This document shows positions 2,806 through 63,658 of a DNA stretch of 64,000 bases, piece after piece. The notes below the pieces were generated by a model. It was not told the DNA's origin. It saw only the letters and a list, made by a program, of their open reading frames with translations, and searched no databases. A program made the position numbers and the translations under genes. The stretch's first letter is position 1, and every line of letters starts with the position of its first letter. This DNA comes from Thermoplasmata archaeon (lineage in GTDB: Archaea; Thermoplasmatota; Thermoplasmata; Thermoplasmatales; ARK-15), in NCBI GenBank assembly GCA_039794005.1, contig JBAMMA010000019.1:12462-76461 (forward strand), in the 5' to 3' direction.

Positions 2806-3816
2806 TTATTTACCCCCATATATTGATGTTGCAAAATGGCATGCTGAATAATGTCCTGGTGATATTTCTATGAGTGGAGGACTCTTTTCTGCGCATATTT
2901 CCCTAGCGTATGGACACCTGGGATGGAACCTACATCCCTTTGGAGGATTCGCTAAATCTGGTGGTGAACCTGGTATAAATGATAACCTTTTTTTCTCACC
3001 AAAAAGGTTTGGGAATGAATTTAACAATCCTTCAGTGTATGGATGGGCATAGTGTTTAAAAACTTCCCTTGTTGTGCCCTTTTCAACAACTTGGCCTGCA
3101 TACATTACAGCAATTTTATGGGATACTTCGGCCACCACAGATACATCATGAGTTATTAATATCATGGCCATGCCTAACTTTTTCTGCAAATCTATAATTT
3201 CCTTTAATATTCTGTCCTGTGTTATTACATCTACAGCGGTTGTGGGCTCATCTGCCAATACTAGTTTAGGCCTTAATGCCAATGCCATAGCTATCATAGC
3301 TCTTTGCTTCATACCACCACTATATTCGTGAGGATAGTTGTTGATTCTATCCCTAGGTATTCCAACAAAATCATAAAGTTCAATGACCCTTCTTTCCAAC
3401 TCCTCCTCAGACATATCTGGTTCATGTGCTAATATTGCCTCCTTTATTTGATCTCCAACCTTATAAACAGGATTGAAAGCATTTAGAGATGCTTGAAATA
3501 TCATCGAAATTTCTTTCCACCTTATCTTTCTAATGTTTTCATCATAAACATTCAATGTACCATCAGGTTTCAATGTATATTTAAACAAATCTTGATCATT
3601 GAATATTATTTTTCCTTTTTTGATATATGCATTGTTTGGCAATAATTGAGTAATTGCATAAGCCAATGTGGATTTTCCTGATCCAGATTCACCAACTAGT
3701 CCTAAAGTTTCACCTGAGTCCAATTCTATGGAAACATCATCAACAGCCCTTACCCAATTACCATAAATTTTGTAATGGACTGATAAATCTTCAACTTTGA
3801 GTAATACCATCCTCAT
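2806..3816 (-). CDS. oppD: Oligopeptide/dipeptide ABC transporter ATP-binding subunit (OppD/DppD)
   Basis: GESGSGKS, YPHEYSGGMKQR, ADEPTTAVD, GCRFHPRC; start could be 3810. Confidence 0.93.
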   Translation of the reverse strand: MRMVLLKVEDLSVHYKIYGNWVRAVDDVSIELDSGETLGLVGESGSGKSTLAYAITQLLPNNAYIKKGKIIFNDQDLFKYTLKPDGTLNVYDENIRKIRWKEISMIFQASLNAFNPVYKVGDQIKEAILAHEPDMSEEELERRVIELYDFVGIPRDRINNYPHEYSGGMKQRAMIAMALALRPKLVLADEPTTAVDVITQDRILKEIIDLQKKLGMAMILITHDVSVVAEVSHKIAVMYAGQVVEKGTTREVFKHYAHPYTEGLLNSFPNLFGEKKRLSFIPGSPPDLANPPKGCRFHPRCPYAREICAEKSPPLIEISPGHYSACHFATSIYGGK

Positions 3817-6065
3817 CTCCTCCTCAATCTAGGATTGATTATTTCATCGAACGCCCTTCCTACAAAGTAAAATGCCATGGATAAGAATGTTATGGCAAGT
3901 CCAGGTGGAATAAGCCACCATGGTGCTCTTAATACATTACCTGTAGTCCAAATATATTGAAGCATCATTCCCCAAGTTATTGCGTGTGGATCTCCGAATC
4001 CCAAAAATGCCAGGGATGCCTCGGTAATAATAGCACCACTAACCCCAAAACTCATAAACAAAAATGTCAGCGGGAGAATATTTGGCATTATGTGTATAAA
4101 CATTATTCTAAGATTTGATGCACCTGATATTCTGGCAGAATCAACGAAGGCCCTAGATTTTAAACTCATCGCCTGTGCCCTGATAATCCTTGTTATACCT
4201 GACCAACCTAAAATTGCAATTACCAAGATAACATTCCAAATAGAAGGACCGAGAATTTCAACCAGAAGGAGCATTATAACAAGGCTTGGCAATGATAAGA
4301 ATATATCTGTCACTCTCATTGCTATTATATCTACTAAACCACCATAATATCCAGATATTAGACCTATAAATGTACCAAGAAGTACTGAAGAAGCTGCAGC
4401 AACAAGTCCAACAATCAACTCTGCCCTAGCTCCATAGACAATCCATGTCCAAATATCATGCCCATAAAGATCGGTACCCATAATATAAACATTATCACTT
4501 TTATATTTTCCAGGTGGCAATGGTGCAATATCTGTACCTAGCGTCATTTGTAAATATAATTTATTATTATTTGTAATTACTCCATAATAGTAACCTAATG
4601 ATGATTGATATGTAATTACATTACCCAAACCGCTTATTGGTGTTCTCATACCACCAGGGATTGAAAAGGTTTGATTTAAATGCATGTTGTTGTTAAAAAC
4701 AAAAACTCCTAAATTCGTTGACAAAATTATCATGTCTGAACCAATATCATAAATAGGTTTTGAATTCACATATCCATCTATTATATTATAAAATTGCCCC
4801 TTTCCCAATATTTTTCCAGTATATTGGTCTATAATTGCAACTATTGAGCTTGATGATGTGTATGCCCAAACAACTGGCATGTTTCCCATGTTTCCTGCTA
4901 TCCCTTGCAAGGTATATTTTTCTACAGAAGAATTTGATATTACGAATGGTGTAATGTACATTACTGATCCGTTTAACCTATTTATACCAATTATATTGTT
5001 ATTTGATGTCATAAGAATAATGTTCTGATTCGGATATTCTGAGGGCAAATTATTTGAATATGTAAGGCTTTGTGGATAAATATTTGTTACTGTATTATTA
5101 TAATTTATTGAATAATTTAAATGCCATGCCAAGTGAGGTTGTGAGACATTTTGAGGGATATTTAAACCATAGCTAAGATATGTTTTGTTAAACTCCATTG
5201 GAAATACATATGAATACAATCCAACTTTTGTTGGTATTATGGCCATTGTGGAATTTAAATCTGAAGGATTTATATATAATAAAATATTATTAATTATTGG
5301 CGAATTTAATTTTAATGTGACAATGCTTAAAGGATTTATATGGACTACCCCGAGGAGCATACCGTTCAATGATAACTGAGAATTGTAGAAAAACAATACC
5401 TTGACTTCTGTTCCATTCGCAATTGCAATGGCACTTAATTGACCTGCATGTGGCAATTGATATGGGTTGTTATAAAATTCACTCCTAAAATCAATGTTTT
5501 TATTTAGATTAAAATTATAAATTTGTTTAAAGTTATTATCCAATATATAGAATGATGTATTTGTAAATCCATAATAAACTATTGATTTTGGTGCAGAGAA
5601 ATATTTGATATACATAGCTGTCTGACCCATGTAATTTGTTCCCTTTGGTATTGAATAATATGTCGGAGATGATAAATTAATTTTCAGTACATTGTTTATA
5701 TAGGTATAACTCACATTAAAAATTGCTGCATTTCCCTGATCATTATAAACTAAAACTGCCTTCAAATATTGATTTGCACCTTGTGAAGATGTGTATGGTA
5801 TAATTCCGACAGGTGGTTTATCCCATACAACATTGTTTGAAAGATTTGTAATATATATATCACCCCTAATCACATCTATAGATGGTGCCTTAAATTCTGG
5901 TGTGTATGGTGTTAAATAAGGTGCAAATACAGCCATAATAACAAATATTATTATCATTATTAATCCGGCCATACCCATTCTGCTTTTTGTATAAATTTTC
6001 CATCCATTTTTTAAAGATCTTATAAAAGCCTTCCTCTGTTCATTCCACCCTCTTTTCTTTACCAT
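3813..6065 (-). CDS. oppC: Oligopeptide ABC permease OppC/DppC with a large extracytoplasmic insertion
   Basis: OppC N-terminal TM helix, then a ~450-aa beta-rich insert. The core has MGTDLYGHD, GLISGYYGG, an EAA-like FVDSARISGAS...HIMPN, EASLAFLGFG and INPRLR. Confidence 0.9.
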   Translation of the reverse strand: MVKKRGWNEQRKAFIRSLKNGWKIYTKSRMGMAGLIMIIIFVIMAVFAPYLTPYTPEFKAPSIDVIRGDIYITNLSNNVVWDKPPVGIIPYTSSQGANQYLKAVLVYNDQGNAAIFNVSYTYINNVLKINLSSPTYYSIPKGTNYMGQTAMYIKYFSAPKSIVYYGFTNTSFYILDNNFKQIYNFNLNKNIDFRSEFYNNPYQLPHAGQLSAIAIANGTEVKVLFFYNSQLSLNGMLLGVVHINPLSIVTLKLNSPIINNILLYINPSDLNSTMAIIPTKVGLYSYVFPMEFNKTYLSYGLNIPQNVSQPHLAWHLNYSINYNNTVTNIYPQSLTYSNNLPSEYPNQNIILMTSNNNIIGINRLNGSVMYITPFVISNSSVEKYTLQGIAGNMGNMPVVWAYTSSSSIVAIIDQYTGKILGKGQFYNIIDGYVNSKPIYDIGSDMIILSTNLGVFVFNNNMHLNQTFSIPGGMRTPISGLGNVITYQSSLGYYYGVITNNNKLYLQMTLGTDIAPLPPGKYKSDNVYIMGTDLYGHDIWTWIVYGARAELIVGLVAAASSVLLGTFIGLISGYYGGLVDIIAMRVTDIFLSLPSLVIMLLLVEILGPSIWNVILVIAILGWSGITRIIRAQAMSLKSRAFVDSARISGASNLRIMFIHIMPNILPLTFLFMSFGVSGAIITEASLAFLGFGDPHAITWGMMLQYIWTTGNVLRAPWWLIPPGLAITFLSMAFYFVGRAFDEIINPRLRRR

Positions 6066-7099: not shown

Positions 7100-10000
7100 T
7101 TAGGAGGTTTGATTTCCTCCTGTGCTTGTTGTTTCAGGTTTTTTAGGTTTTCTAAATGCCAGTACTATTGCTACTATCGCTAAAATTAATGCTAAAATTG
7201 AAACAGATATTGCAGTATTCATTGATCCCTGAGCTGAAGATATTGTCGATTTAACATTTTCAGAAGTGTTTGTTAATGATTGTGAAATCTTTGTAACTGT
7301 GTTGTTCAAATCTGCAACGGTGGCATATTGACTTGGCTGATAATAGAAGAATTCTGGAACAATTATATTTACATTGTTGTTATCCGTCAAGTTTAAGAAT
7401 ACAGCATTTAATCCAGAATAGAATCCGGAAACATTTGCATACCACTGATATATACCTGGAGATATTTCAGTATATGTAACATTGAATGGATTCATTGGAT
7501 TATCTAGGTATAATACAACATTTTTGATTCCTGAAGGTGCCCATATCATTCCTTTTATTGTATAACTTGAATTTGTCAATACCTGTGAAGGCATAAGATT
7601 AATGTATTGAGCACTTGGCTGTGGTGCATAAGATACAAGTGTAAGATAATAGACACCACCAAAGACATTTCCTGATAATTTAATTATGACTGTATCAATA
7701 GTGAATGGATTTCCATTAACTGTAGTGTTTACAGGGGTTATATAATATGTCGTTTCTCCAATATTATTTGTAAGGCCAGATCCAATGACATTTCCGGTAG
7801 AGGATGTAACAGATATTTGAGATTTTGAAAGTGGATTTCCATATTGATCATATGCATTTACTGTTAATATCGCTGTTGAATTGTATGGCAATGTATATAC
7901 ATTAGAAGAGACATATAACAATCCCTGATAAGGTACAACTATAATATTAATACCTTGTACAATTGAAGCTATTCCCCATGCATTCTGCGCTGTTGGTTTA
8001 GGATATGCTGGCATATAGTTCCATCCAACATACATAGCATCCTGCAACAATGACGTTGTACCCTTCAAAGGTAATGTTGCATATACCATTCCATTTGAAT
8101 TTGTAGTATATGTATAAACTGGTTGAATACCTAAATTACCGAATGGTAAGACGAAGTTTATGAATGATGGATTTGAAACAAATAGTTTTGAATAGAATGA
8201 AAGACTCTGATTTACCTGGGGTGTATCAGTTGCATTGACTAATTTTGCATATACGTTAATGCTGCCTCCACTAAATCCGAATGAATTGTTTACATTGATA
8301 ATCGCAATTCTGACATCCATTGCTCTCTGTACTACTATTTGATTTGTTAGATATTCTGAACCCATTATGTAGAAATTACCATTCGCTATAACACCTGGAG
8401 GATATATTCCACTCGTATATGGATAATACGCATAGGCATAAGGTATTGCATATAAGTCTATTTTAGTGTCCATTAATGGAGAAACTAAACCTGGTAGATA
8501 GAATGTTCCAACACCATTTGTTATATATGAATCATCTACATAAATACCATATCCATATAATACATAATCGGATGCTGTTGATCCGAGATATGGATCTTCA
8601 ATTTGATTATCAAGCTGGCTTTCAAATACTCCTGACATTGTTGGTAATATTCCCATGTATGTTGTATTTAGATTAATACCTACCAATTCCCATAGAGAAT
8701 TCATGTATCCTTGAGGAATTCCTGTGCCAGAATAATTAGTGGTCCAATTAGGATCATACAATCCCAATAATGAACCTGTTGTTGATGCAGTTACAATGAA
8801 TCCAATTGGTATTGTGCCATTTACTGGCATGTTATATGAATTAAAGAGATGCACAACAAACGCATGCATTTTTTCATTTACGTTTACAAAGTTACTATTC
8901 ATGCCCGTATTTGTGTTATATAATGATATATAACCACCGTACAAGTTTGTTGGTGTAACTCCATTAACATAAGCAATTGTTAAACTATCTGAAATAAGAT
9001 ATTCTGATGAATCTATAAATGTGATAGATATTCCAGCTGTTTTAAGTCCAGGCTTAAAGGTTATTGTAATGTTAGTATATCCAAATAAATTGGTTATGCC
9101 ATATGTATAGTTTTCAATATACGTTGAGTTTGATGCCGATATACCAATTTTCATTCCGCTAATAGGATTACCGTTTATATTTACAGCCTGAACTTCGACT
9201 GTTGTCTTCAAATCATTCTGATTTACAAAGTAATTTGTTGCTCCGATAATATGTATTTGATCCCAATTGCTTGGATATGGATTATAATCAAACACTGTTA
9301 AACTAATCTGGTTTTCAACTGTATAACCTGGTGCTTTTGCAGATATAAATAATTTACCGTCCAAATTTCTATTAGCATAAGTGTTTTTCATTTCGCTAAC
9401 TGATGGGGCTGAATAAACGAAAGTTGCAATACCATTTGCATTGGTATAATTATACAAAGGATATATATTACCAAAACCAATAAGATTTGAAGCAATTGAT
9501 ATATTGGCTCCAGATACAGGCTTTCCATATTGATTAACAGCTTTAACTTTAACCAATGTGGTTTCTCCTGGCATAAGAGATGGTGTTGAAACACTTGCAG
9601 TAATGAATAATATATTTGGCACAAATTGGACAACTTCAATTTGCTGTATTGCTGATGCACTCATATTTGAATAAGATACATTTGCTTTCAGTGTTAAAAA
9701 TCCAGGAACTGATCCTGTAATATATGTTGTAAACATTCCGTTCATATTTGTGTATCCAGATGAAGATCCAATTATTACAGATCCATTACCATATTGTGTT
9801 AACTTAACATAAGCATTTGGAACAGGCAAACCAAAATTATTTGTAACTAAAACAGAGATGGGAACGCTTGATGCAGATGTGGATATTCCAAATCCAGGTT
9901 GATTAATTAAAACCTTTTGTGATCCTATAATTACAGCATTAATTGATTCTACCTGTTTTGGATATACAATATTTCCTACCTTTTGCTGAATGACTGTTGT

Positions 10001-11869
10001 TCCTGATTGACCTGTTGGAACTGAATACATGTGAAGATTTGCAAGTGAATATATATTATAAATACTGCCTTCCCATGAGAACCATCCAGTCCATACATTC
10101 AAAGTTGCCTCAATATTTATTGAATAATATAATACATTAACAGGGATAGCTTCGCTGAGTATCCCCTGGGCCCATTTTGTATAATAAATCTGCTGACTTG
10201 GATTAAATGTTGTTAAGGCTTTATTTATCACATCGTTAAACTGCCATGCAAGCTGTGATGTCTGGTTATCGGCCAAAGTCTTTATATTTGGGAAATTGGG
10301 ATTTGTATAATTTGAAGGCCAGAATGCTTCATAATTATTTGGAACATTCATTCCAAATATATCCGCAAGATTTCCTATTGGATCAAGACTTAGAGACCAA
10401 CCCAAGGTTAACATCTGGTATTGATAAGCAGACATTAAAGCAACAAGTGTATTGAAATCCTGCGCCTTGGCTACTGCATTGATTCCAATCTGAGACATTT
10501 TGTATGCAAGGGCTTCGCCTACCTTTACCCTTATAGGATCATAATCCGCTGGAGGAGTCAAAATCGTGATGGGTGGCATTGGTTGTCCATTTGGCATCAT
10601 TCTCCATCCATTTGGACCTATCGGGAAGCCCGATGTATTTAATATATAAGATGCATTTGATGGCGAATATGGATATCTAACAACTGATGAGTTATACCAT
10701 GCTGTGAAGAATGGTGGCTCAGTTGAGTCACCTGGTTGACCTAAACCAGCCATATAATCTTGGACTATTGTATTTTTATCTATAAGATGTGAGACAGCCT
10801 CTCTAAATGCTAAATAATTCATGGGCTGTTGAGCCATATTGAATGCAAGATAGAAATATCCATTGTTTGGACTGTAAAACAAGTTTATATTCGGATTAGA
10901 TTTCAATTCAGGAACATAACTTCCCGGTATTGACCATGCAATATAATCTACATCTCCTGTTTGCAGGGCCAATATTGCAGTATCTAATGTTGTATAAATC
11001 TTAAAGTATATTTCTGTAACATTCCTTGGATAAACAGAATATCCGGAAGGCGTTACATAATTCTTTCCCCAGAAGTATTTATTTAATTTAATAATTTCAT
11101 AAGAATTCTGAACACCACCTGCATAATAATAATTACTTGTTCCCATAGTGGCCAAAGGACTGCCTGTCCACTGAGTATTTACAACACCGTTGGTACTGCC
11201 ATTTGGATTAACTACTGGTGGTTTTGTATTATTATCATACGGTAATCCTGTTACAGTAAGATGATTTTTCCAAATCTTCCATGGTATTATGGGTATACTC
11301 ATAGTACCCATGAAGAATTCCCCATAGGGCTGATACATAGTGAATTCAACGGTAAAGTTATCTATAAATTTCACATGACGTAGCATTTCATAGTATGTAA
11401 CATAACCATATTCCTGATCATCGAAAGGTGTTGTAAATGCCGATCCAGAAACTGTTGTTCCATACCTCTCAGCAAAATATGAAAAAACAACGTCTTTTGC
11501 TGTTAATTCATATGCAGGCGTGCCATTTCCTGGCCAAACAAAATAAACACCCTGCCTTATATGAACGATTAATGTTAAATTAGAAGGATAAAAAGTAGCA
11601 TTCTGCGCTAAATATGGTACCATTTCACCATTTTCATCCATAGTATAGAGAGAATCCCATCCCCAACCAATTATATCAGCTTTCCAAACAGTATTTGTTG
11701 GAATGTTGAAATAGTTATAATTTGCCATATCTTGCTGCAATGCAATGTATAATATACCAGAAGAGTTTGTATTCTTATTTAAAGACACAGCAGAGCTCAT
11801 TGAGGAAAAGCCACTTAATAACACCATACCAACAACAAATAGACCAAGTGCTATCAATAATTCCCTCAT
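7100..11869 (-). CDS. Giant family-5 ABC solute-binding protein fused to multiple Ig-like (Big_1-type) repeats with a C-terminal TM anchor
   Basis: Signal peptide MRELLIALGLFVVG (likely start 11869, SD GGTGA). SBP_bac_5 motifs: PYLA, LTAKDVVFS, ALQTGDVD, YLAFN, FREAVSHLIDK. Repeats of the form V.v.n..G.Pv.g.....TN.NG; C-terminal hydrophobic helix followed by RKPKK. Confidence 0.88.
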   Translation of the reverse strand: MRELLIALGLFVVGMVLLSGFSSMSSAVSLNKNTNSSGILYIALQQDMANYNYFNIPTNTVWKADIIGWGWDSLYTMDENGEMVPYLAQNATFYPSNLTLIVHIRQGVYFVWPGNGTPAYELTAKDVVFSYFAERYGTTVSGSAFTTPFDDQEYGYVTYYEMLRHVKFIDNFTVEFTMYQPYGEFFMGTMSIPIIPWKIWKNHLTVTGLPYDNNTKPPVVNPNGSTNGVVNTQWTGSPLATMGTSNYYYAGGVQNSYEIIKLNKYFWGKNYVTPSGYSVYPRNVTEIYFKIYTTLDTAILALQTGDVDYIAWSIPGSYVPELKSNPNINLFYSPNNGYFYLAFNMAQQPMNYLAFREAVSHLIDKNTIVQDYMAGLGQPGDSTEPPFFTAWYNSSVVRYPYSPSNASYILNTSGFPIGPNGWRMMPNGQPMPPITILTPPADYDPIRVKVGEALAYKMSQIGINAVAKAQDFNTLVALMSAYQYQMLTLGWSLSLDPIGNLADIFGMNVPNNYEAFWPSNYTNPNFPNIKTLADNQTSQLAWQFNDVINKALTTFNPSQQIYYTKWAQGILSEAIPVNVLYYSINIEATLNVWTGWFSWEGSIYNIYSLANLHMYSVPTGQSGTTVIQQKVGNIVYPKQVESINAVIIGSQKVLINQPGFGISTSASSVPISVLVTNNFGLPVPNAYVKLTQYGNGSVIIGSSSGYTNMNGMFTTYITGSVPGFLTLKANVSYSNMSASAIQQIEVVQFVPNILFITASVSTPSLMPGETTLVKVKAVNQYGKPVSGANISIASNLIGFGNIYPLYNYTNANGIATFVYSAPSVSEMKNTYANRNLDGKLFISAKAPGYTVENQISLTVFDYNPYPSNWDQIHIIGATNYFVNQNDLKTTVEVQAVNINGNPISGMKIGISASNSTYIENYTYGITNLFGYTNITITFKPGLKTAGISITFIDSSEYLISDSLTIAYVNGVTPTNLYGGYISLYNTNTGMNSNFVNVNEKMHAFVVHLFNSYNMPVNGTIPIGFIVTASTTGSLLGLYDPNWTTNYSGTGIPQGYMNSLWELVGINLNTTYMGILPTMSGVFESQLDNQIEDPYLGSTASDYVLYGYGIYVDDSYITNGVGTFYLPGLVSPLMDTKIDLYAIPYAYAYYPYTSGIYPPGVIANGNFYIMGSEYLTNQIVVQRAMDVRIAIINVNNSFGFSGGSINVYAKLVNATDTPQVNQSLSFYSKLFVSNPSFINFVLPFGNLGIQPVYTYTTNSNGMVYATLPLKGTTSLLQDAMYVGWNYMPAYPKPTAQNAWGIASIVQGINIIVVPYQGLLYVSSNVYTLPYNSTAILTVNAYDQYGNPLSKSQISVTSSTGNVIGSGLTNNIGETTYYITPVNTTVNGNPFTIDTVIIKLSGNVFGGVYYLTLVSYAPQPSAQYINLMPSQVLTNSSYTIKGMIWAPSGIKNVVLYLDNPMNPFNVTYTEISPGIYQWYANVSGFYSGLNAVFLNLTDNNNVNIIVPEFFYYQPSQYATVADLNNTVTKISQSLTNTSENVKSTISSAQGSMNTAISVSILALILAIVAIVLAFRKPKKPETTSTGGNQTS

Positions 11870-11910
11870 GAAATTCACCAATTGTTTTATATTAAAATAA
11901 TATTTAAACA

Positions 11911-11934
11911 TTTTGGTATATTAATATACCAAAA
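11911..11934. promoter_or_regulatory. Perfect 24-bp palindrome in a divergent promoter region, candidate operator
   Basis: TTTTGGTATATTAATATACCAAAA equals its own reverse complement and lies between divergent starts at 11869 and 11968. Confidence 0.6.
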
Positions 11935-11967: not shown

Positions 11968-13857
11968 ATGAAAAAAATATATGTAATTATTTATTTAATT
12001 TCAATAGCTTCAATTGCATCAATATTGAGGCTTATTCCATCATTTAATTATTATGTTTGGGGTGTAGATTTTGGGATATATTATAATATTTTAAAGAGCT
12101 TATCTATTCAAAATCTTTTATATAAACCAATGAATTCTATATGGGGTACTTCCGGATATGGATATTTTCCTGTACCATATATAATCATGATGGGTTTTCA
12201 TTATTTAACTGGATTAAGTATTCACTTTATAATGATGCATTTTCCTCAGGTATTTTCTTCTTTTACAGTTATTGGAATTTTTTTAATTTCCAGAGAATTG
12301 ACAAAATTTGACTTAATATCTTTAATTGCATCAATCATGGTAGCAATTAATCCATTTGATGTATTTGAGGAATCTATGATCGGTTTATTAATTTTTGGTC
12401 ATGTTTTTTTAATTTTTTCAATTTTATTTCTCTTACTATACATAAAATACAATAAAATGAAATATCTTTATCTTTCATTTACATTTGGTATTCTATTAAT
12501 GCTTTCACATCATCTCTCAACTTTGATGTTTATTATACCTTTAATTTTTATTTCTATTTATTATAAAAATCATAAGACACTTTTCTATTATGTTTTAATT
12601 TATATATCCATGGTGTTTGCATATTGGTTATTATTTATTCCCTCAATGAAATTTTTCTTTCAATATGGATTGTTAGGCATACCATTTTACTTTGTTCCCA
12701 CAATATTTTATTTAATTTATGTTATTTTATATTTTAAAATAAATAAAATTATTGAATTATTGAAATCTTATAAACTCAAACTTAAATTAACAAATTTCAA
12801 AATATTGATGAATAATTTAAATACTTACCTATTCGCTTTGATTGTTGGCTTAATTGTTGAAATTTTATTGTTAATTGGGATAGAAGGTATAAAAATAAAC
12901 TTAAATGTTTTCATTTTTTCAATACCATTTTTATTAATAATATCATTTTCAGGTCCAGGATTTCTGAATATCAAAAAATATAAAAATGCAACATTTTTAT
13001 TGATATGGATATCTTCATTAACAGTTGTATTTTTTTATTCGTTGTTTACATGGAATGGAATATTAATACCTTACAGATTCTTGGAATATATATTTGAACC
13101 AATGTCAATCATCTCCGGGATAGGAATTTATGAATCTTATTTAGTTTTGAATAAAAAATTCAATAATTATCATAATATAAAAATCATAAACATTAACAAC
13201 AACGTTTATAATATTTCTGGATTGAATATTAATAATGGTGCTACATACTTTAGATTTTATAACAACCATCCATTTTTGGGAAATAGATTAATTATAAAAA
13301 ATTATGGATTTAATATAATAACGATTTTTATTTCTATTTTAATAATAATATTTTTATTTAGTACAATTAGTGTATATCCAATTGTTGATCAAGTGAATGA
13401 AACTTCTCAAAATTATATAACTCCTTTAATGATGTCTGCATTGAATTACTTAATAAAATATGGAAATAGAAATTATTCAGTTGCAACGGATGCCGTAGAT
13501 GGATTATATTTGGAATCTTTTGGATTTAATTCTACATTTGAATATACATACAAATTATGGACAGGTGAAAATTGGACAGATGCAATTAATGAACTTTATG
13601 GAAACAATACATATCCAAAGATAGGATACGTTTTAATCAATTCAAACATGTTTTATAATGGAATATATGGATATGAGCTTAGTACCCATCCAAGCTATGA
13701 TCCCCCAATATATTTAAACAACACAACATTTAACAAATTTTTCAGACAACCATTTTATATTTTATATTACAATAATACATTTGATAATTCACAATGGGTT
13801 TATGTCTTTGGAGTAAATTGGACATATATAAACAATTATTTGAAAAATTCAAATTAA
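11968..13857 (+). CDS. Multi-pass membrane protein, putative GT-C fold glycosyltransferase
   Basis: About 12 or more TM helices. The first external loop has WGVDFGIYY...GYGYFP, followed by LSHHLST and PYRFLEY, and there is a C-terminal soluble domain. This architecture is typical of lipid-linked-sugar GT-C enzymes. Confidence 0.6.
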   Translation: MKKIYVIIYLISIASIASILRLIPSFNYYVWGVDFGIYYNILKSLSIQNLLYKPMNSIWGTSGYGYFPVPYIIMMGFHYLTGLSIHFIMMHFPQVFSSFTVIGIFLISRELTKFDLISLIASIMVAINPFDVFEESMIGLLIFGHVFLIFSILFLLLYIKYNKMKYLYLSFTFGILLMLSHHLSTLMFIIPLIFISIYYKNHKTLFYYVLIYISMVFAYWLLFIPSMKFFFQYGLLGIPFYFVPTIFYLIYVILYFKINKIIELLKSYKLKLKLTNFKILMNNLNTYLFALIVGLIVEILLLIGIEGIKINLNVFIFSIPFLLIISFSGPGFLNIKKYKNATFLLIWISSLTVVFFYSLFTWNGILIPYRFLEYIFEPMSIISGIGIYESYLVLNKKFNNYHNIKIININNNVYNISGLNINNGATYFRFYNNHPFLGNRLIIKNYGFNIITIFISILIIIFLFSTISVYPIVDQVNETSQNYITPLMMSALNYLIKYGNRNYSVATDAVDGLYLESFGFNSTFEYTYKLWTGENWTDAINELYGNNTYPKIGYVLINSNMFYNGIYGYELSTHPSYDPPIYLNNTTFNKFFRQPFYILYYNNTFDNSQWVYVFGVNWTYINNYLKNSN

Positions 13858-39128: not shown

Positions 39129-40013
39129 ATGGAGCTAGTAAGAAAAGGTAAGGTAAAGGAAGTCTATGCATTGGGAGAAAAAGAGCTTCTTTTTGTATTT
39201 ACAGACAACATATCTGTTTTTGACAAAATAATACCATCCAAGATTCCATATAAGGGTGCATCTTTAGCCAGAACATCTGCGCACTGGTTTAAAATAGTTT
39301 CAGATATGGGAATAAAAACACACTTCATTGAATTACCGGAAATGAATAAAATGAAGGTAAGGAGATTCCAAATAACAATGAAGGGAAAAAAGGATGGAAA
39401 GAATTTTCTCATACCACTTGAATTTATTACGAGATATTATATTGCAGGATCGTTTCATGATAGAATTTTAAAGGGTAAAATAAACCCAGCAGAAATTGGA
39501 ATAAAAAACGTAAAATATGGAGAACCTTTGCCACAGCCTTTTTTTGAAGTTACAACAAAATTTGAAGAATATGACAGACCTTTGAGTTTCGAGGAGGCCA
39601 TGGAGATAGGAGGATTAAACAGGGAAGAACTTGATGATATTAGGGAAAAGATACTGAAAATAGATGATGTCATTAACAAAGACGTAATGAAAAGGGGATT
39701 GTTGCATGTAGACGGTAAAAAAGAATGGGCATTAGATGATGAAAGGGAGCCAGTATTGGTAGATACATTTGGAACAGCCGATGAAGATAGATTTTGGGAT
39801 TTAGAAGAATACAAAAAAGGTAATTTTGTAGAATTGAGCAAAGAATTTGTAAGAAAATATTACAAAGACATTGGATACTATGATAAGCTCATGAAGGCAA
39901 GAGAAAAAGGTGAAAAAGAGCCAGATATACCTCCTTTACCTGAAGACATGGTTAAAAAAACCAGTGAATTATACTTAATGTTATATGAAAAAATAACTGG
40001 AGAAAAATGGTAA
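39129..40013 (+). CDS. purC: Phosphoribosylaminoimidazolesuccinocarboxamide synthase
   Basis: KGKVKEVY, TD.ISVFD, IPYKG, VDGKKE, GTADEDRFW, SKEFVR. Confidence 0.94.
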   Translation: MELVRKGKVKEVYALGEKELLFVFTDNISVFDKIIPSKIPYKGASLARTSAHWFKIVSDMGIKTHFIELPEMNKMKVRRFQITMKGKKDGKNFLIPLEFITRYYIAGSFHDRILKGKINPAEIGIKNVKYGEPLPQPFFEVTTKFEEYDRPLSFEEAMEIGGLNREELDDIREKILKIDDVINKDVMKRGLLHVDGKKEWALDDEREPVLVDTFGTADEDRFWDLEEYKKGNFVELSKEFVRKYYKDIGYYDKLMKAREKGEKEPDIPPLPEDMVKKTSELYLMLYEKITGEKW

Positions 40014-40026
40014 AAAATTTTAAAGA

Positions 40027-40914
40027 TTATTTTTTATTTTTATTTTTGTAAAATATTGCTGAAATGATTCCGATTACTACGATTACTGCAATGGCAACAT
40101 AAATGTAATTCATATAATTAACTGGACTGTTGGAATAAACCAATATAGAATTATTTGTGGCTATTGCATATCCTGGTGTTACTATTGTACTTGATGGGTC
40201 ATAGATTATCTTTAAGGAATAATCGTTTAACGTGGCATTTAACAACAAGTATGATGATGTATTGTAATAAAATATTGTTGTGTTTGTTGATGGATTATAT
40301 ATTTTATTCCATTGACTCAATGGTTTTGAAAGGGCAGAGAAGTTGATTGTATCTATTTCATTATTGTTTATGAATTTAAATATAAATGACGATTTATCGT
40401 TCATATCTGAAAGTATGTCATTAAGATCATATTCCTCATTGTTATAAGAAACGTCAAAATGTCCTTTAATATTTATTGACCTCCATGCCATGTCTATTTC
40501 TGTACCATTGCTTGTCTTGTTAAATATTCCCGTTAACCATAGATCAATTGACGTATTTTTATATATTATCATTACTGTTGAGTTTGCGTGTTCGATCAAA
40601 GAGAATTTTATTGTCATGTTGCTTATTGAAACATTATGGTATCTAGATTTTATATATCCTTCCATGAATTTTATTGCCCAATCTGATGGTTTGTTAAACG
40701 TTAAGGAGAATGAAACATTGTATGATGTATTGATCAAGCTCTCTAGGCTACCATTTGGATATGTAAATACCAAAACTGCGACCGAATTTAGAGATATGTG
40801 AGCCATTTTTTTATCTGGATATAAATATATATTAAGATATGATGCGTGGGATAATGGTATGAATGCCACTAAGCCAAGTATCATAACAACCAAATATGCA
40901 AATATCTTTTTCAT
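40027..40914 (-). CDS. Hypothetical cell-surface glycoprotein (signal peptide plus C-terminal TM anchor)
   Basis: MKKIFAYLVVMILG signal, many N-x-S/T sequons, C-terminal hydrophobic helix followed by KNKNKK. Confidence 0.75.
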   Translation of the reverse strand: MKKIFAYLVVMILGLVAFIPLSHASYLNIYLYPDKKMAHISLNSVAVLVFTYPNGSLESLINTSYNVSFSLTFNKPSDWAIKFMEGYIKSRYHNVSISNMTIKFSLIEHANSTVMIIYKNTSIDLWLTGIFNKTSNGTEIDMAWRSINIKGHFDVSYNNEEYDLNDILSDMNDKSSFIFKFINNNEIDTINFSALSKPLSQWNKIYNPSTNTTIFYYNTSSYLLLNATLNDYSLKIIYDPSSTIVTPGYAIATNNSILVYSNSPVNYMNYIYVAIAVIVVIGIISAIFYKNKNKK

Positions 40915-41980
40915 GATTTTTAAATCATTTGTTTTAATTTAAAAATTTTATGGTATACTCCGTATTGTTAAATACCTTTTTTATTAAATTTTAATTCTTT
41001 ATATATATAATTAAAATTATAGTAATAAAAATGATCTAAAATTATACATCTTTTGTGAATATAGAAAAAAATAAAAGGATTTGTAAAAATACAACGATTT
41101 TTTTGGTAAATAGGGTTTTTATATTAAATAAATTGATGTTTTTTAATATAGAGAAAAATCTTGATCATGAAATGAAAATATAGGAAAACCATCTTAATAT
41201 TCATAAAGTTATTCAAATTTATTAAAAAGTTAGGAAAATAGGTATTTTCCATTCAGAAAGTTTGAATTGTTCGTTAATATACTATAAAAAATAATAGTCA
41301 ACTTCATGCCTATTACATATGTTTAAATTTTAAAAGGAGTAAGAGCACTTTTCATATTAAATGGTGAAAAATAAACAGGAATGTAAAAATGATTTTCGAT
41401 ATTAATGAAAAATTAAACTTTAAAATCTTTGAAATATAATATTTACATAAAAATTCAATTAATATTAATTTTTCATTATATATTAAGCACAAATAGAAAT
41501 TACTATAATTTAATAATGTCTTTAAAATAAAAATTTCAAACCATTAAGTTACAAATTATCGACTTCAAGGCAAATAATGTTCATAAATTTTGTTTTAAAC
41601 ATTCTTAATAAAATGATTGAAAAAATTTTTTGTTAACAATGGAAATAATCTAATTTAAAATATGCATGTGAAAGGTAAAATTGATCATTTAACTATCTAT
41701 TCTTGTTTTAAAGTAAACAATTCCTCAGCTCTATATATTTCCTCTATTAATTTTAATTATAAAAACATAGGTTTTGTAATGTTTATCATTTCTTGTATTG
41801 TTTAGTGTAATTTATCTGAAATAAGAAAATCATGAATTACTAAATTCATCCTTTGAATAATAATCTTTTACAGCGAAATTCACCTTTCAAATGTTTTCTT
41901 AAAATTGTATTCAATTTCCAAAAGCGATTTTTTAAAAATCTATTAAGTTAAAGATTTTAAAAATCATAGGAATCGTATTT

Positions 41981-42979
41981 TCAAATATTATTTTTGAATA
42001 ACAGCATTGCATCACCAAAACTGAAAAATCTATATTTATTTTCAACTGCCACTTTATATGCATTCATAGTTCTCTCATAACCACCAAATGCTGTCACGAG
42101 CATAATAAGACTTGATTTAGGCATGTGAAAATTGGTAATTATTGCATCTATACCACTTTGGAATTTATGACCTTCCATAATAAATAAATTTGTTTTAAAT
42201 GTTCCCGGAAATACGATATTGTCTTTTGAAGAAGATTCCAATGCCCTGACAACGGTTGTTCCTACTGCAAATAATCGTCCCTTCCTACTGTTTATTTTTT
42301 CAGCTGTTTCTTCAGGAATATGATAATATTCTTCGTGTAACGTCTTATTTACAATTTCTTCATATTCTAAATGTTTGAAAGTTGAGTATGATATATGCAA
42401 TGTTAAATATTGAATATCCACACCTTTTTCTTTTATCTTTTTCAGTAATTCCTCAGTAAAATGTAAACCGGCAGTTGGTGCTGCTACAGAACCTTCTATA
42501 GCTGAGTAAACTGTTTGATACATCTCTGGATTTTTTATGTCTTTTTTAATATATGGAGGTGTAGGAATCCTCCCATATTTTTCTATAATCTTTTCAATAT
42601 CGATACCAAAATCTACTTTTGCTATTCCTCCATTTTTTTCTAAAATTTTACCCTTGAATTCGTTTATTTCAATTGTAGTCCCCTCTTTTACATTTTTTCC
42701 TTTAACTAGAAAAACAGGATATTCTTTCTTTTCGATTAAAAGTAATTCCACCTTACCACCCGTGGATTTTTTACCAAATAATCTTGCTTTAATTACCTTT
42801 GAATTGTTTAATACCAATACATCCCCTTTCTCCATGTAGTTTATTATATCTTTGAATATTCTATGCTCAATATCATTACCTTTTAATACCATTAATTTAC
42901 ATTCATCTCTGGGATATACAGGTTCCTGTGCAATTAACTCCTTTGGAACGGAAAAATAATATTTTTCCAAAATATCCAT
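41981..42979 (-). CDS. queA: S-adenosylmethionine:tRNA ribosyltransferase-isomerase QueA
   Basis: P.ELIAQEP..PRD...LMV, GDVLVLNNSKVIKARL.G.K.TGG.VE, P.PPYI, YQTVY....GSVAAPTAGLHFT, AVGTTVVRALES, ITNFH.PKSSL, YRFFSFGDAML. Confidence 0.95.
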   Translation of the reverse strand: MDILEKYYFSVPKELIAQEPVYPRDECKLMVLKGNDIEHRIFKDIINYMEKGDVLVLNNSKVIKARLFGKKSTGGKVELLLIEKKEYPVFLVKGKNVKEGTTIEINEFKGKILEKNGGIAKVDFGIDIEKIIEKYGRIPTPPYIKKDIKNPEMYQTVYSAIEGSVAAPTAGLHFTEELLKKIKEKGVDIQYLTLHISYSTFKHLEYEEIVNKTLHEEYYHIPEETAEKINSRKGRLFAVGTTVVRALESSSKDNIVFPGTFKTNLFIMEGHKFQSGIDAIITNFHMPKSSLIMLVTAFGGYERTMNAYKVAVENKYRFFSFGDAMLLFKNNI

Positions 42980-43017
42980 GTAAAAAATTTAATATTTAGT
43001 TTATTTTAAATTTTTGG

Positions 43018-43995
43018 ATGGAATTCAAAAAAGTAAAAGATTTGAAAATATCCGTTTTAGGACAGGGAACCTGGCAAGGTTCAATGAAAGGTTGGGGGAA
43101 AGATTATTCTGAAAAGGATTTCATAGAAAGTGTTAAAAAATCAATTGAATTGGGCGTAAATTTCTTTGATACAGCAGAAATATATGGTAATGGATATTCA
43201 GAAAAATTGCTAGGTAAAGCAATATCAGGATACAACAGGGAAGATTTAATAATAGCAACTAAATTGGCCCCATTTAATATTGAAAATTGGGAAAAACATT
43301 TGGATAGAAGCCTAAAAAATTTAAATACCAAATATATAGATATATATCAATTACATTGGCCTACTCCTTTTTATATCAATTTTAACAAATATTTAAAGGA
43401 AATGGAAAACGCAATCAAAAATGGTAAAATTAGATATATTGGAGTTAGCAATTTTTATTTAAAAGACATAGAAAAATTGGAAGTCGATATTATATCAAAC
43501 CAGATAAAATACAACATTTTAAAAAAGCAACTAAATGATAATGAAATTGAGATTTTAAATAAAAAGAATATTTTAGTTATTGGATATTCTCCGTTGGAGA
43601 TGGGATTACTTTCAGGCAAATATAATATTAATGAAAAACCAAAGGGATATCTGAGAAAGAGAATTCCATACCTAAAAGGTGAAAATTTCAGAAAATTTAA
43701 TGAAATTTTGACATTTTTAAAAGATCTTTCAAATAAATATGATTATTCTTTGACTCAAATATCATTAAAATATTGCATATTGAAAAATGTTGTACCTATT
43801 TATGGAAGTAAAAACGGTAAACAGTCTGAAGATAATGCACTTTCAATAAATGTACCGTTAAAGCCTGAAGATGTTAATAAAATAGATGAACTTGTATATT
43901 CTATGCATTTAAAGAATCTAGATGAAGATTGGTCTAAATTAGCAAGAAATTTGCCTTTATTTATTCAAAAATTGACTTTGAAATATTTTATTTAA
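43018..43995 (+). CDS. Aldo/keto reductase
   Basis: LGQGTW, FDTAEIYG.G.SE, IATK, YQLHWP, IGVSNF, YSPL. Confidence 0.92.
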   Translation: MEFKKVKDLKISVLGQGTWQGSMKGWGKDYSEKDFIESVKKSIELGVNFFDTAEIYGNGYSEKLLGKAISGYNREDLIIATKLAPFNIENWEKHLDRSLKNLNTKYIDIYQLHWPTPFYINFNKYLKEMENAIKNGKIRYIGVSNFYLKDIEKLEVDIISNQIKYNILKKQLNDNEIEILNKKNILVIGYSPLEMGLLSGKYNINEKPKGYLRKRIPYLKGENFRKFNEILTFLKDLSNKYDYSLTQISLKYCILKNVVPIYGSKNGKQSEDNALSINVPLKPEDVNKIDELVYSMHLKNLDEDWSKLARNLPLFIQKLTLKYFI

Positions 43996-63565: not shown

Positions 63566-63658
63566 CCCGGCTTAGCTCAGAGGTAGAGCAGCGGACTGTA
63601 GTGGGAAGGTATCCGCGCAGGCATCCGCCTGTCCCCGGTTCGAGTCCGGGAGCCGGGA
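63566..63658 (+). tRNA. tRNA-Tyr(GTA) with a 21-nt intron at 37/38 (63602-63622)
   Basis: Acceptor CCCGGCT/AGCCGGG (C1:G72, A73 archaeal Tyr identity); anticodon stem GCGGA/TCCGC with loop CTGTAG|intron|A; BHB central helix CTGT:GCAG with 3-nt bulges; T-arm CCCGG-TTCGAGT-CCGGG. Confidence 0.93.

What the first reader, a model, noticed from the sequence alone, without database searches (positions are those of the whole stretch)
41981..42979. Intact bacterial-type QueA in an archaeal chromosome: possible archaeal queuosine pathway
Seen: a full-length QueA with all hallmark motifs and host-like composition, embedded among clearly archaeal genes. Established: QueA converts preQ1-tRNA to epoxyqueuosine at position 34 of GUN-anticodon tRNAs in bacteria, whereas archaea canonically use preQ0 for archaeosine at G15 and are regarded as lacking Q. 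Inference: this lineage may make Q34, which would also need a bacterial-type Tgt, a preQ1 source and a QueG/QueH-type reductase, or it has repurposed QueA. A potential substrate, tRNA-Tyr(GUA) with U33-G34-U35, is in the window.
Basis: partly seen in the sequence, partly recalled or inferred. Interest (0 to 1): 0.75.

Follow-up and report, generated by a model that had tools for sequence, protein, structure and literature searches.

The report
Queuosine tRNA-modification genes in an archaeon
A hot-spring archaeon of the class Thermoplasmata carries an intact gene for QueA together with the other late enzymes that bacteria use to put queuosine into the anticodon of four tRNAs, so this "bacterial" tRNA modification is probably made by a whole group of archaea, although nobody has yet measured it.

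Summary
ORF 41981-42979(-) is a full-length QueA, above the cut-offs of two NCBI equivalog models, with host-like composition. It lies on a contig with archaeal hallmark genes (PolD large subunit, aCPSF1).

The same 1.10-Mb genome encodes a bacterial-type Tgt, the epoxyqueuosine reductase QueH, preQ0 synthesis genes (a GTP cyclohydrolase of Pfam family PF02649, QueD, QueE-like, QueC) and the archaeal TgtA plus an ArcS-like gene. The contig is not chimeric: QueA shares at least one flank with the window in 14 of 15 relatives of the family.

Across 41 genomes of the order, all 33 with canonical QueA also have bacterial-type Tgt and one reductase (QueH or QueG). One of them is the cultured Aciduliprofundum boonei T469. 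QueA-family genes occur in 122 of 301 sampled Thermoplasmata genomes.

One gap remains. QueF was found in none of the 16 genomes of this family, and neither were the YhhQ and QueT importers, so the preQ1 source is unknown.

The general idea is already in print (Castelle 2021: 34 archaeal genomes), and NCBI already names these proteins QueA. No measurement of Q in an archaeon turned up in my searches. Verdict: real, probably functional, moderately interesting, a new member of a known kind.

The parts
41981..42979 (-). queA: tRNA preQ1(34) S-adenosylmethionine ribosyltransferase-isomerase, 332 aa
   Evidence: ORF. PF02547 at 388.2 bits, full length. NF001140 and TIGR00113 above their cut-offs. 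Matches the solved QueA structures 1vky, 1yy3 and 1wdi. Keeps 55 of 58 bacterial-conserved columns. It is the only PF02547 match in the genome.
63566..63658 (+). tRNA-Tyr(GUA) gene with an intron, a candidate substrate (U33-G34-U35)
   Evidence: Rfam tRNA at 56.5 bits. The sequence is read. The other three GUN tRNAs (Asn C5:42745-42819, His C17:71783-71856, Asp C17:190665-190737) lie outside the window and also show U33-G34-U35.
42980..43017 (.). 38-bp divergent intergenic spacer between queA and an aldo-keto reductase gene (43018-43995,+). It presumably holds the queA promoter; the reductase is not a conserved partner.
   Evidence: ORF coordinates. The reductase matches aldo-keto reductase models below their cut-offs. 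It sits next to QueA in only 2 of 15 family relatives, G001 and G010. That the spacer holds a promoter is inference only.

Best explanation
The ORF is a genuine, vertically inherited QueA that works as in bacteria, as the middle step of a queuosine (Q34) pathway running in an archaeon beside the archaeosine (G+15) pathway.

Inferred flow:
- A GTP cyclohydrolase of Pfam family PF02649, QueD, a QueE-like radical-SAM enzyme and QueC make preQ0.
- The archaeal TgtA plus an ArcS-like protein use preQ0 for G+ at position 15.
- A separate bacterial-type Tgt exchanges G34 of tRNA-Asp, -Asn, -His and -Tyr (all U33-G34-U35) for preQ1.
- QueA transfers and isomerises the ribosyl part of SAM onto the aminomethyl group of preQ1-tRNA, giving epoxyqueuosine.
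- QueH reduces epoxyqueuosine to Q.

The presence, integrity, co-occurrence and synteny of these genes are shown. Every chemical step is inferred from family membership. The preQ0-to-preQ1 step has no gene in this family. The likeliest source is uptake of preQ1 released by neighbours through a transporter of an unrecognised family, as is proposed for the many bacteria that have Tgt but lack QueF.
For: - QueA family membership and integrity.
- Own genome (1,099,501 bases, 20 contigs, 87.2% complete, 0.29% contamination):
  - Bacterial-type Tgt at C6:80772-81881, TIGR00430 428.2 bits against cut-off 306.75.
  - TgtA at C19:235-2139, TIGR00432 539.1 against 350.
  - QueH at C6.
  - QueD and QueC adjacent on C11.
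  - QueE-like on C18, TIGR04349 235 bits, full length but below the 300 cut-off.
  - ArcS-like on C12, 253 bits against cut-off 440.
  - A GTP cyclohydrolase of Pfam family PF02649.
- In the alignment to Zymomonas mobilis TGT, by my count along the printed rows, the Tgt has identical residues at positions 102, 156 and 280 (Asp), 318/320/323 (Cys) and 349 (His).
- Co-inheritance across G000 plus 40 relatives of the order:
  - Canonical QueA (307-450 bits) in 33 of 41 genomes.
  - Tgt above the TIGR00430 cut-off in the same 33 of 41.
  - An epoxyqueuosine reductase in all 33: QueH in 25 of them and QueG above cut-off in the 8 of family f3 that lack QueH.
  - The 7 genomes of family f7, six of them 99% complete and one 98%, have no bacterial-type Tgt, QueH or QueF.
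- Vertical descent:
  - The order purC, membrane protein, QueA, porGDAB is shared on at least one flank in 14 of 15 family loci.
  - Each archaeal family forms a clade: f1 SH-aLRT 85, f5 99, f3 100.
  - Holding all 35 canonical Thermoplasmata rows as one clade is not rejected: lnL is 29.3 higher than the free quick tree, p-AU 0.838.
- The gene occurs in a complete genome of a cultured archaeon. P0074, named QueA of Candidatus Aciduliprofundum, sits on a 1,486,778-base contig, the length of G019's single contig.
Against: - QueF (PF14489) was found in 0 of 16 genomes of this family, whose completeness is 76-98%, while it is present in 17 of the other 25.
- tblastn with QueF proteins of relatives gave only a chance hit (E 0.08) inside an ABC-transporter ATPase.
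- The known preQ importers were not found: YhhQ/PF02592 in 0 of 16 and QueT/PF06177 in 0 of 41. QueA therefore has no demonstrated substrate supply.
- Thirteen of 16 family QueA proteins, the window's included, lack a His that is at least 95% conserved in the 70 bacterial rows (K in the window). Its role is unknown to me.
- In the window's genus the Tgt pocket has Val at Z. mobilis position 158 and Met at 233, where other relatives have Cys and Ile.
- There is no expression or chemical evidence of any kind.
- The bacterial rows in the tree are the query's nearest hits, not a balanced sample, and the backbone is unresolved.
Confidence: 0.7

Rival explanations
1. The pathway is complete de novo. 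An unrecognised enzyme, not homologous to QueF, reduces preQ0 (which the cell makes anyway) to preQ1, so no salvage is needed.
For: The genome makes preQ0 (QueD, QueE-like, QueC). It keeps Tgt, QueA and QueH in 16 of 16 family genomes. QueF and both known importer families are missing family-wide. Non-orthologous replacement already occurs in this order at the last step, where QueG stands in for QueH in family f3.
Against: No candidate emerged. The aldo-keto reductase next to queA is adjacent in only 2 of 15 relatives. The genes overlapping tgt and queH are an M50 peptidase, a CoA-transferase and an enoyl-CoA hydratase. The QueF loci of three relatives share no gene order with this genome. To my knowledge (recalled) no non-QueF preQ0 reductase is known in any organism.
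Confidence: 0.13
2. The three bacterial-type enzymes have been repurposed. They act on a different base, position or nucleic acid (for example preQ0 at position 34, or a non-tRNA target), so the end product is not queuosine.
For: No preQ1 source was found. The family-wide loss of a bacterial-conserved His in QueA and the Val158/Met233 Tgt pocket in this genus show some drift. A clearly divergent QueA-like family with a different partner (a short-chain dehydrogenase) exists elsewhere in the class, so the fold can be reused.
Against: All three proteins score as full-length members of the bacterial families, QueA and Tgt above equivalog cut-offs. QueA keeps 55 of 58 conserved columns. Sister families with QueF have the same Tgt pocket (Cys/Ile) as most of this family. 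The strict co-occurrence of Tgt, QueA and a reductase in 33 of 33 genomes is what the canonical pathway predicts.
Confidence: 0.1
3. The late Q genes are a decaying relic in this family. After QueF was lost the pathway no longer runs, and QueA is idle.
For: QueF was not found in 16 of 16 genomes. Genomes are small, 1.0-1.6 Mb, which suggests reduction.
Against: QueA, Tgt and QueH are uninterrupted open frames in all 16 genomes across four genera. QueA proteins have diverged to 54-77% identity while keeping 93.5% of bacterial-conserved positions on average. A streamlined genome would not be expected to keep three idle genes.
Confidence: 0.05
4. The gene is bacterial contamination or a chimeric contig in a metagenome-assembled genome.
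For: The genome is a 20-contig assembly, and its DNA is held in hot-spring metagenome runs. The nearest non-archaeal QueA proteins are bacterial, at 39-46% identity.
Against: QueA lies 22 kb from PolD and 18 kb from aCPSF1 on one contig. Composition is host-like. Estimated contamination is 0.29%. The flanks are shared in 14 of 15 independent assemblies of the family. Orthologues sit in closed single-contig genomes, G019 and G023. The nearest relatives, at 50-94% identity, are all from Thermoplasmata.
Confidence: 0.02

Closest known systems
Bacterial QueA (for example Thermotoga maritima 1VKY, Bacillus subtilis 1YY3)
   Same: Same length class and same family models above cut-off. Alignable end to end, E 9.1e-88 to 1vky. 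55 of 58 bacterial near-invariant positions are kept.
   Different: The host is an archaeon. One His that is near-invariant in bacteria is Lys here and is non-His in 13 of 16 family members. Identity to the listed bacterial proteins is at most 46%.
Bacterial queuosine pathway reported in DPANN and some Euryarchaeota (Castelle et al. 2021, PMC8204110)
   Same: The same three genes (QueA, QueH/DUF208, bacterial-type Tgt) in archaeal genomes, read there as a laterally acquired bacterial pathway (passages read).
   Different: In that paper the genes are described as co-localised in DPANN. Here they are scattered: queA on C19, tgt and queH 21 kb apart on C6. The main text names DPANN and Methanosarcinales, not Thermoplasmata. 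[quoted passage not shown]
Bacteria with Tgt, QueA and a reductase but no QueF (preQ1 salvagers)
   Same: The same gene pattern. PMC5699537 states that many organisms with bacterial-type TGT lack preQ0 synthesis and/or QueF and must salvage (passage).
   Different: Those bacteria usually carry YhhQ/QPTR or QueT/QrtT importers (abstract of PMC11130926). Neither family was found here. Unusually, this organism still makes preQ0 itself.
Archaeosine (G+15) pathway of archaea (TgtA/ArcTGT plus ArcS)
   Same: It shares the precursor preQ0 and the TGT fold. The genome has TgtA above cut-off and an ArcS-like gene.
   Different: It acts on position 15 in the D-loop and ends in a formamidine, and it needs no QueA. 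Here it coexists with the Q34 enzymes rather than replacing them.

Membership tests
QueA (tRNA preQ1(34) SAM ribosyltransferase-isomerase; PF02547, TIGR00113, NF001140) | Full-length match above the curated family cut-offs | tested here: met
   PF02547 at 388.2 bits covering profile positions 1-322 of 322. NF001140 at 385.9 against 324 and TIGR00113 at 359.6 against 267.45. NF002398 at 260.8 against 588 is not reached.
QueA | Homology over the whole length to solved QueA structures | tested here: met
   1vky 9.1e-88 (residues 6-327), 1yy3 1.4e-81, 1wdi 1.1e-75. No structure was predicted; it was judged unnecessary.
QueA | Retention of positions that are near-invariant in bacterial QueA | tested here: met
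   55 of 58 columns that are at least 95% identical in 70 bacterial rows. The exceptions are H212K, P269E and I327L. The catalytic roles of individual residues are not known to me.
QueA | Catalyses SAM-dependent formation of epoxyqueuosine on preQ1-tRNA | not testable with these tools
   This needs an enzyme assay or complementation of a queA mutant.
Bacterial-type queuosine (Q34) pathway | A bacterial-type Tgt, the signature gene of the pathway according to PMC5699537 | tested here: met
   TIGR00430 at 428.2 bits against cut-off 306.75. Residues at Z. mobilis positions 102, 156, 280, 318, 320, 323 and 349 are identical in the printed alignment (my count). Present above cut-off in 33 of 41 genomes of the order, the same 33 that have canonical QueA.
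Bacterial-type queuosine (Q34) pathway | An epoxyqueuosine reductase (QueG or QueH) | tested here: met
   QueH (PF02677) at 191 bits, full length. QueG was not found in this genome. Family f3 has QueG instead, above cut-off in 8 of 8 genomes.
Bacterial-type queuosine (Q34) pathway | A source of preQ1: QueF, or a YhhQ/QueT importer | tested here: not met
   QueF in 0 of 16 family genomes and no hit by tblastn. YhhQ in 0 of 16. QueT in 0 of 41. The own genome is 87.2% complete, but relatives reach 93-98%.
Bacterial-type queuosine (Q34) pathway | Substrate tRNAs with G34 in a U33-G34-U35 context (Asp, Asn, His, Tyr) | tested here: met
   All four genes are present, each with C32-U33-G34-U35 in the ARAGORN drawings. 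The recognition element is taken from a passage of PMC5699537.
Bacterial-type queuosine (Q34) pathway | Q or epoxyqueuosine actually present in tRNA | not testable with these tools
   No RNA run is listed for this DNA. No paper reporting Q measured in an archaeon turned up in searches.

The most novel reading that the evidence does not exclude
This family makes preQ0 and keeps bacterial-type Tgt, QueA and QueH in 16 of 16 genomes. It has neither QueF nor either known preQ importer family. It may therefore harbour a preQ0-to-preQ1 reductase unrelated to QueF, which would be a new enzyme for a step thought to have a single solution. Its four GUN tRNAs could then carry archaeosine at position 15 and queuosine at position 34 at once. 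A milder version, an importer of a new family for preQ1, is more likely, at roughly 0.45.
Probability: 0.13. Interest if true: 0.75.

Novelty: new member of a known kind. Interest (0 to 1): 0.45.

Why it matters
Reviews, and a 2026 preprint introduction, still assign queuosine to Bacteria and Eukarya and archaeosine to Archaea. The gene pattern found here argues that a large part of the class Thermoplasmata has run the bacterial Q34 pathway for a long time, alongside archaeosine:
- 33 of 33 genomes with canonical QueA also have bacterial-type Tgt and a reductase.
- Gene order around QueA is conserved within the family.
- A single origin of the archaeal QueA proteins is not rejected.

One member with the full gene set, Aciduliprofundum boonei T469, is in culture, so the question "does any archaeon contain Q?" can be answered directly by one LC-MS run.

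The family of the window adds a smaller puzzle: a missing preQ1 source in an organism that makes preQ0. This could point to a new importer or enzyme.

Practically, annotation pipelines already call these genes correctly. What is lacking is the chemistry.

Tried and rejected
- Aldo-keto reductase as a QueF substitute. The reductase gene transcribed divergently from queA was considered. It was rejected because it is adjacent in only 2 of 15 family loci.
- Neighbours of tgt, queH, queD and queE. These are an M50 peptidase, a CoA-transferase, an enoyl-CoA hydratase, a MoaE-like protein, a 6-phospho-3-hexuloisomerase and an AMMECR1-type protein. None suggests a preQ0 reductase. A 198-aa ORF beside queD has no family match.
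- tblastn of four QueF-locus ORFs from family f3 against the whole genome. The best hit had E 0.08, inside an ABC ATPase, and was judged chance.
- Synteny around QueF in three relatives (G019, G018, G029). There is no shared gene order with this genome, so no "slot" could be inspected.
- Other radical-SAM ORFs that weakly matched the QueE model. They are NirJ/AhbC-like, PTO1314-family and an activase-like protein, with nothing pointing to queuine lyase. I had no model for QueK or QueL and did not test for them.
- dN/dS of queA against four family orthologues. Synonymous sites are saturated: NG86 is undefined for two pairs and dS is 1.6-2.75 for the others. No conclusion was drawn.
- Free tree of 108 QueA rows. 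The backbone is unresolved, so no donor lineage can be named. Rows left out: L067 (no ORF of 200 aa or more), and G027 in the AU test because of its long branch.
- Expression. The look-up of sequencing runs listed five DNA runs from hot-spring metagenomes and no RNA holder. This says nothing about expression.
- Read laying. I intended it to show contigs of a second sample spanning the locus.
- Rfam on the window. Only the two tRNAs were found, and nothing in the AT-rich gap downstream of queA.
- Not run.
- Supplements. The supplementary tables of PMC8204110 could not be opened. They may list Thermoplasmata among the 34 archaeal genomes.
Full report
**1. Observation**

The ORF listing gives one ATG-started ORF of 332 aa at 41981..42979 on the minus strand.
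- It matches Pfam PF02547 over the whole profile (388.2 bits).
- It clears the curated cut-offs of two NCBIfam QueA equivalogs, NF001140 (385.9 against 324) and TIGR00113 (359.6 against 267.45). A third, lineage-specific model is not reached.
- It aligns end to end with the three solved QueA structures (1vky 9.1e-88).
- In an alignment of 108 QueA rows, 58 columns are at least 95% identical among 70 bacterial rows. The window protein has the consensus residue in 55 of them.
- Its GC content (30.2%, GC3 21.9%) sits within the range of neighbouring genes.

The window is archaeal. It encodes the PolD large subunit and aCPSF1, both well above equivalog cut-offs. I recall this combination as the archaeal tRNA-Tyr identity set, so that point is from memory, not from a call.

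**2. The organism**

The window is C19:12462-76461 of a 1.10-Mb, 20-contig genome, 87.2% complete and 0.29% contaminated.
- The nearest QueA proteins in public data are from MAGs named Thermoplasmata or Thermoplasmatales archaeon (50-56% identity; up to 94%).
- Bacterial proteins follow, at 46% identity or less.
- The DNA is held in hot-spring metagenome runs.

**3. The rest of the pathway in the same genome**

| Gene | Place | Evidence |
|---|---|---|
| Bacterial-type Tgt, 369 aa | C6 | TIGR00430 428.2 against cut-off 306.75 |
| Archaeal TgtA, 634 aa with PUA domain | C19:235-2139 | TIGR00432 539.1 against 350 |
| QueH | C6 | PF02677 191 bits |
| QueD and QueC, adjacent | C11 | |
| QueE-like radical-SAM protein | C18 | TIGR04349 235 bits, full length, below the 300 cut-off |
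| ArcS-like protein | C12 | 253 bits against cut-off 440 |
| GTP cyclohydrolase of Pfam family PF02649 | C17 | |

Not found: QueG, QueF, YhhQ and QueT.

In the printed alignment to Z. mobilis TGT I counted identical residues at positions 102, 156, 280, 318, 320, 323 and 349. The role of D102, and the meaning of positions 158, 231/232 and 233, come from passages of PMC5699537. The roles of the other positions are recalled. Position 158 is Val and position 233 is Met in this genus. Ten of the other 11 aligned family members and the three f5 rows have Cys and Ile (G000 plus 20 of the 40 relatives were aligned). Met at 233 keeps the pocket filled, so I read it as a small-substrate (preQ1-type) pocket, but this is inference.

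**4. Comparative genomics**

Pattern across G000 plus 40 relatives of the order:

| Family | Genomes | Canonical QueA | Bacterial-type Tgt | Reductase | QueF |
|---|---|---|---|---|---|
| f1 (own) | 16 | 16 | 16 | QueH 16 | 0 |
| f5 | 7 | 7 | 7 | QueH 7 | 7 |
| f3 | 8 | 8 | 8 | QueG 8 (QueH 0) | 8 |
| f4 | 1 | 1 | 1 | QueH 1 | 1 |
| f6 (80% complete) | 1 | 1 | 1 | QueH, in two pieces | 0 |
| f2 | 1 | 0 | only 203 bits, below cut-off | QueH 1 | 1 |
| f7 | 7 | 0 | 0 | 0 | 0 |

- The f2 genome also has two YhhQ genes.
- In f7, six genomes are 99% complete and one is 98%. One f7 genome has a divergent QueA-like gene (181 bits).
- YhhQ was found only in the f2 genome, and QueT in none of the 41.

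So every one of the 33 genomes with canonical QueA also has bacterial-type Tgt and exactly one kind of epoxyqueuosine reductase. This is the pattern a working pathway predicts, and the QueH/QueG alternation mirrors bacteria.

At class level PF02547 hits 122 of 301 sampled genomes (120 of 299 without the two unpublished genomes G129 and G240). The hits fall into two score tiers. A canonical tier above 300 bits is found in nine families, one of them with 39 of 41 genomes. A divergent tier scores about 110-250 bits.

**5. Vertical inheritance, not contamination**

- QueA shares at least one flank with the window (purC and a membrane protein on one side, porGDAB on the other) in 14 of 15 family loci. 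The exception is a locus at a contig end.
- None of the 13 loci from other families shares these neighbours.
- Each family is a clade in the QueA tree, but the backbone is a polytomy.
- A tree with all 35 canonical Thermoplasmata rows held together scores 29.3 log-likelihood units better than the free quick search, and it is not rejected (p-AU 0.838). This is compatible with one old acquisition but does not prove it. The bacterial rows are the query's closest hits only.
- G019 is a single contig of 1,486,778 bases. A cluster on a contig of that length is named QueA of Candidatus Aciduliprofundum, and a near-identical one is named Aciduliprofundum boonei T469. On this basis I identify family f5 with that cultured genus.

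**6. Mechanism**

The best reading is the canonical pathway. Bacterial-type Tgt puts preQ1 at G34 of the four GUN tRNAs. QueA builds the epoxycyclopentanediol from SAM. QueH reduces it. TgtA and the ArcS-like protein use preQ0 at G15.

Gene content, integrity and co-inheritance are shown. All chemistry is inferred.

The open step is preQ0 to preQ1. A QueF-less, Tgt-positive pattern is common in bacteria and is read as salvage (PMC5699537). I therefore favour uptake of preQ1 by an unrecognised importer (about 0.45 of the total), over an unknown reductase (0.13), repurposing (0.10) or decay (0.05).

Two family-specific drifts are recorded as cautions. A bacterial-conserved His is lost in 13 of 16 family QueA proteins. 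The Tgt pocket is Val158/Met233 in this genus.

**7. What is known**

- Castelle et al. 2021 (PMC8204110; abstract and passages read) reported complete or partial bacterial queuosine pathways (QueA, QueH-like, Tgt) in 34 archaeal genomes, 12 of them DPANN. The figure legend names Methanosarcinales. Thermoplasmata are not named in the main text in this connection. The figure and supplementary tables could not be seen.
- NCBI and JGI already name the Thermoplasmata proteins QueA.
- A 2026 preprint still introduces Q as bacterial and eukaryotic and G+ as archaeal (10.64898/2026.04.08.717055, passage).
- In seven full-text searches I found no paper that reports Q measured in an archaeon, or that discusses the pathway in Thermoplasmata or Aciduliprofundum. 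The only paper containing both "queuosine" and "Aciduliprofundum" mentions them in unrelated places.

**8. Verdict**

It is not a first: the idea is published for other archaea and the genes are routinely annotated. What this analysis adds:
- the extent of the pathway within Thermoplasmata;
- the strict three-gene co-inheritance with a QueH/QueG swap;
- a cultured test organism;
- the family-wide absence of any known preQ1 source.

Interest 0.45; a new member of a known kind.

Noticed in passing
Other genomes of the class: L120:2858-4580, L156:3291-4945, L157:3260-4984, L158:3271-4945, L159:3995-5693, L160:3257-4996, L161:3995-5738, L162:3126-5023, L163:3989-5790: A divergent QueA-like protein occurs in Thermoplasmata families f7, f14, f17 and f29. 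It scores about 110-250 bits on PF02547, starting near profile position 20, and is 27-33% identical to the window QueA. In G027 it keeps only 47% of the bacterial-conserved columns. Family f7 has no bacterial-type Tgt. In 9 of 9 loci fetched, the gene is immediately preceded on the same strand by a conserved gene of about 210-290 aa, which is a short-chain dehydrogenase (PF00106) in all 5 copies scanned. This two-gene module may be a genuinely repurposed QueA. It is not present in the window's genome. Two of the class-level hits are in the unpublished genomes G129 and G240.
   Followed up: partly
window 40915-41980: About 1.07 kb downstream of queA has no ORF of 60 aa or more. The 2-kb composition bin 40001-42000 that contains it has GC 23.2%, against 31.8% for the window. 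No Rfam family matches it. In relatives the membrane-protein gene follows queA within tens of bases, so the gap is specific to this genome.
   Followed up: partly
own genome C6:80772-81881 (L002:1465-2574), outside the window: The bacterial-type Tgt of this genus (G000, G001) has Val at Z. mobilis position 158 and Met at position 233. Ten of the other 11 aligned family members have Cys and Ile. Val158 is the eukaryotic (queuine-type) state according to PMC5699537, but position 233 is bulky rather than Gly.
   Followed up: partly
relatives G017, G022, G025, G028, G031, G034, G037, G040 (family f3): Within one archaeal order the last step of the pathway is carried by QueH in four families and by QueG in family f3, where QueG is above cut-off in 8 of 8 genomes and QueH is found in 0 of 8. 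This is the same non-orthologous alternation as in bacteria.
   Followed up: yes
window 63566-63658: The tRNA-Tyr gene is 93 nt long. Besides the 9-nt insert after position 37, it has a 17-nt stretch between the anticodon stem and the T stem that can form its own hairpin. This is either a long variable arm, unusual for archaeal tRNA-Tyr as I recall, or a second intron at a non-canonical place. ARAGORN with default settings miscalls the gene His(GTG).
   Followed up: partly
relative G016 (family f2): This genome has QueH, two to three QueF-family hits and two YhhQ genes, but no QueA (86% complete). Its best Tgt scores only 203 bits on TIGR00430 and shows a gap where the others have the CxCxxC motif. 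It may be a different 7-deazaguanine system.
   Followed up: no
window 7100-11911 and 3813-6065: A 1603-aa ORF has only a central peptide/nickel ABC substrate-binding domain (residues about 255-600). A 750-aa ORF has an Opp/Dpp-type permease domain only in its last 230 residues. Both are far longer than their bacterial counterparts. A 629-aa ORF at 11968-13857 has no Pfam or NCBIfam match.
   Followed up: no
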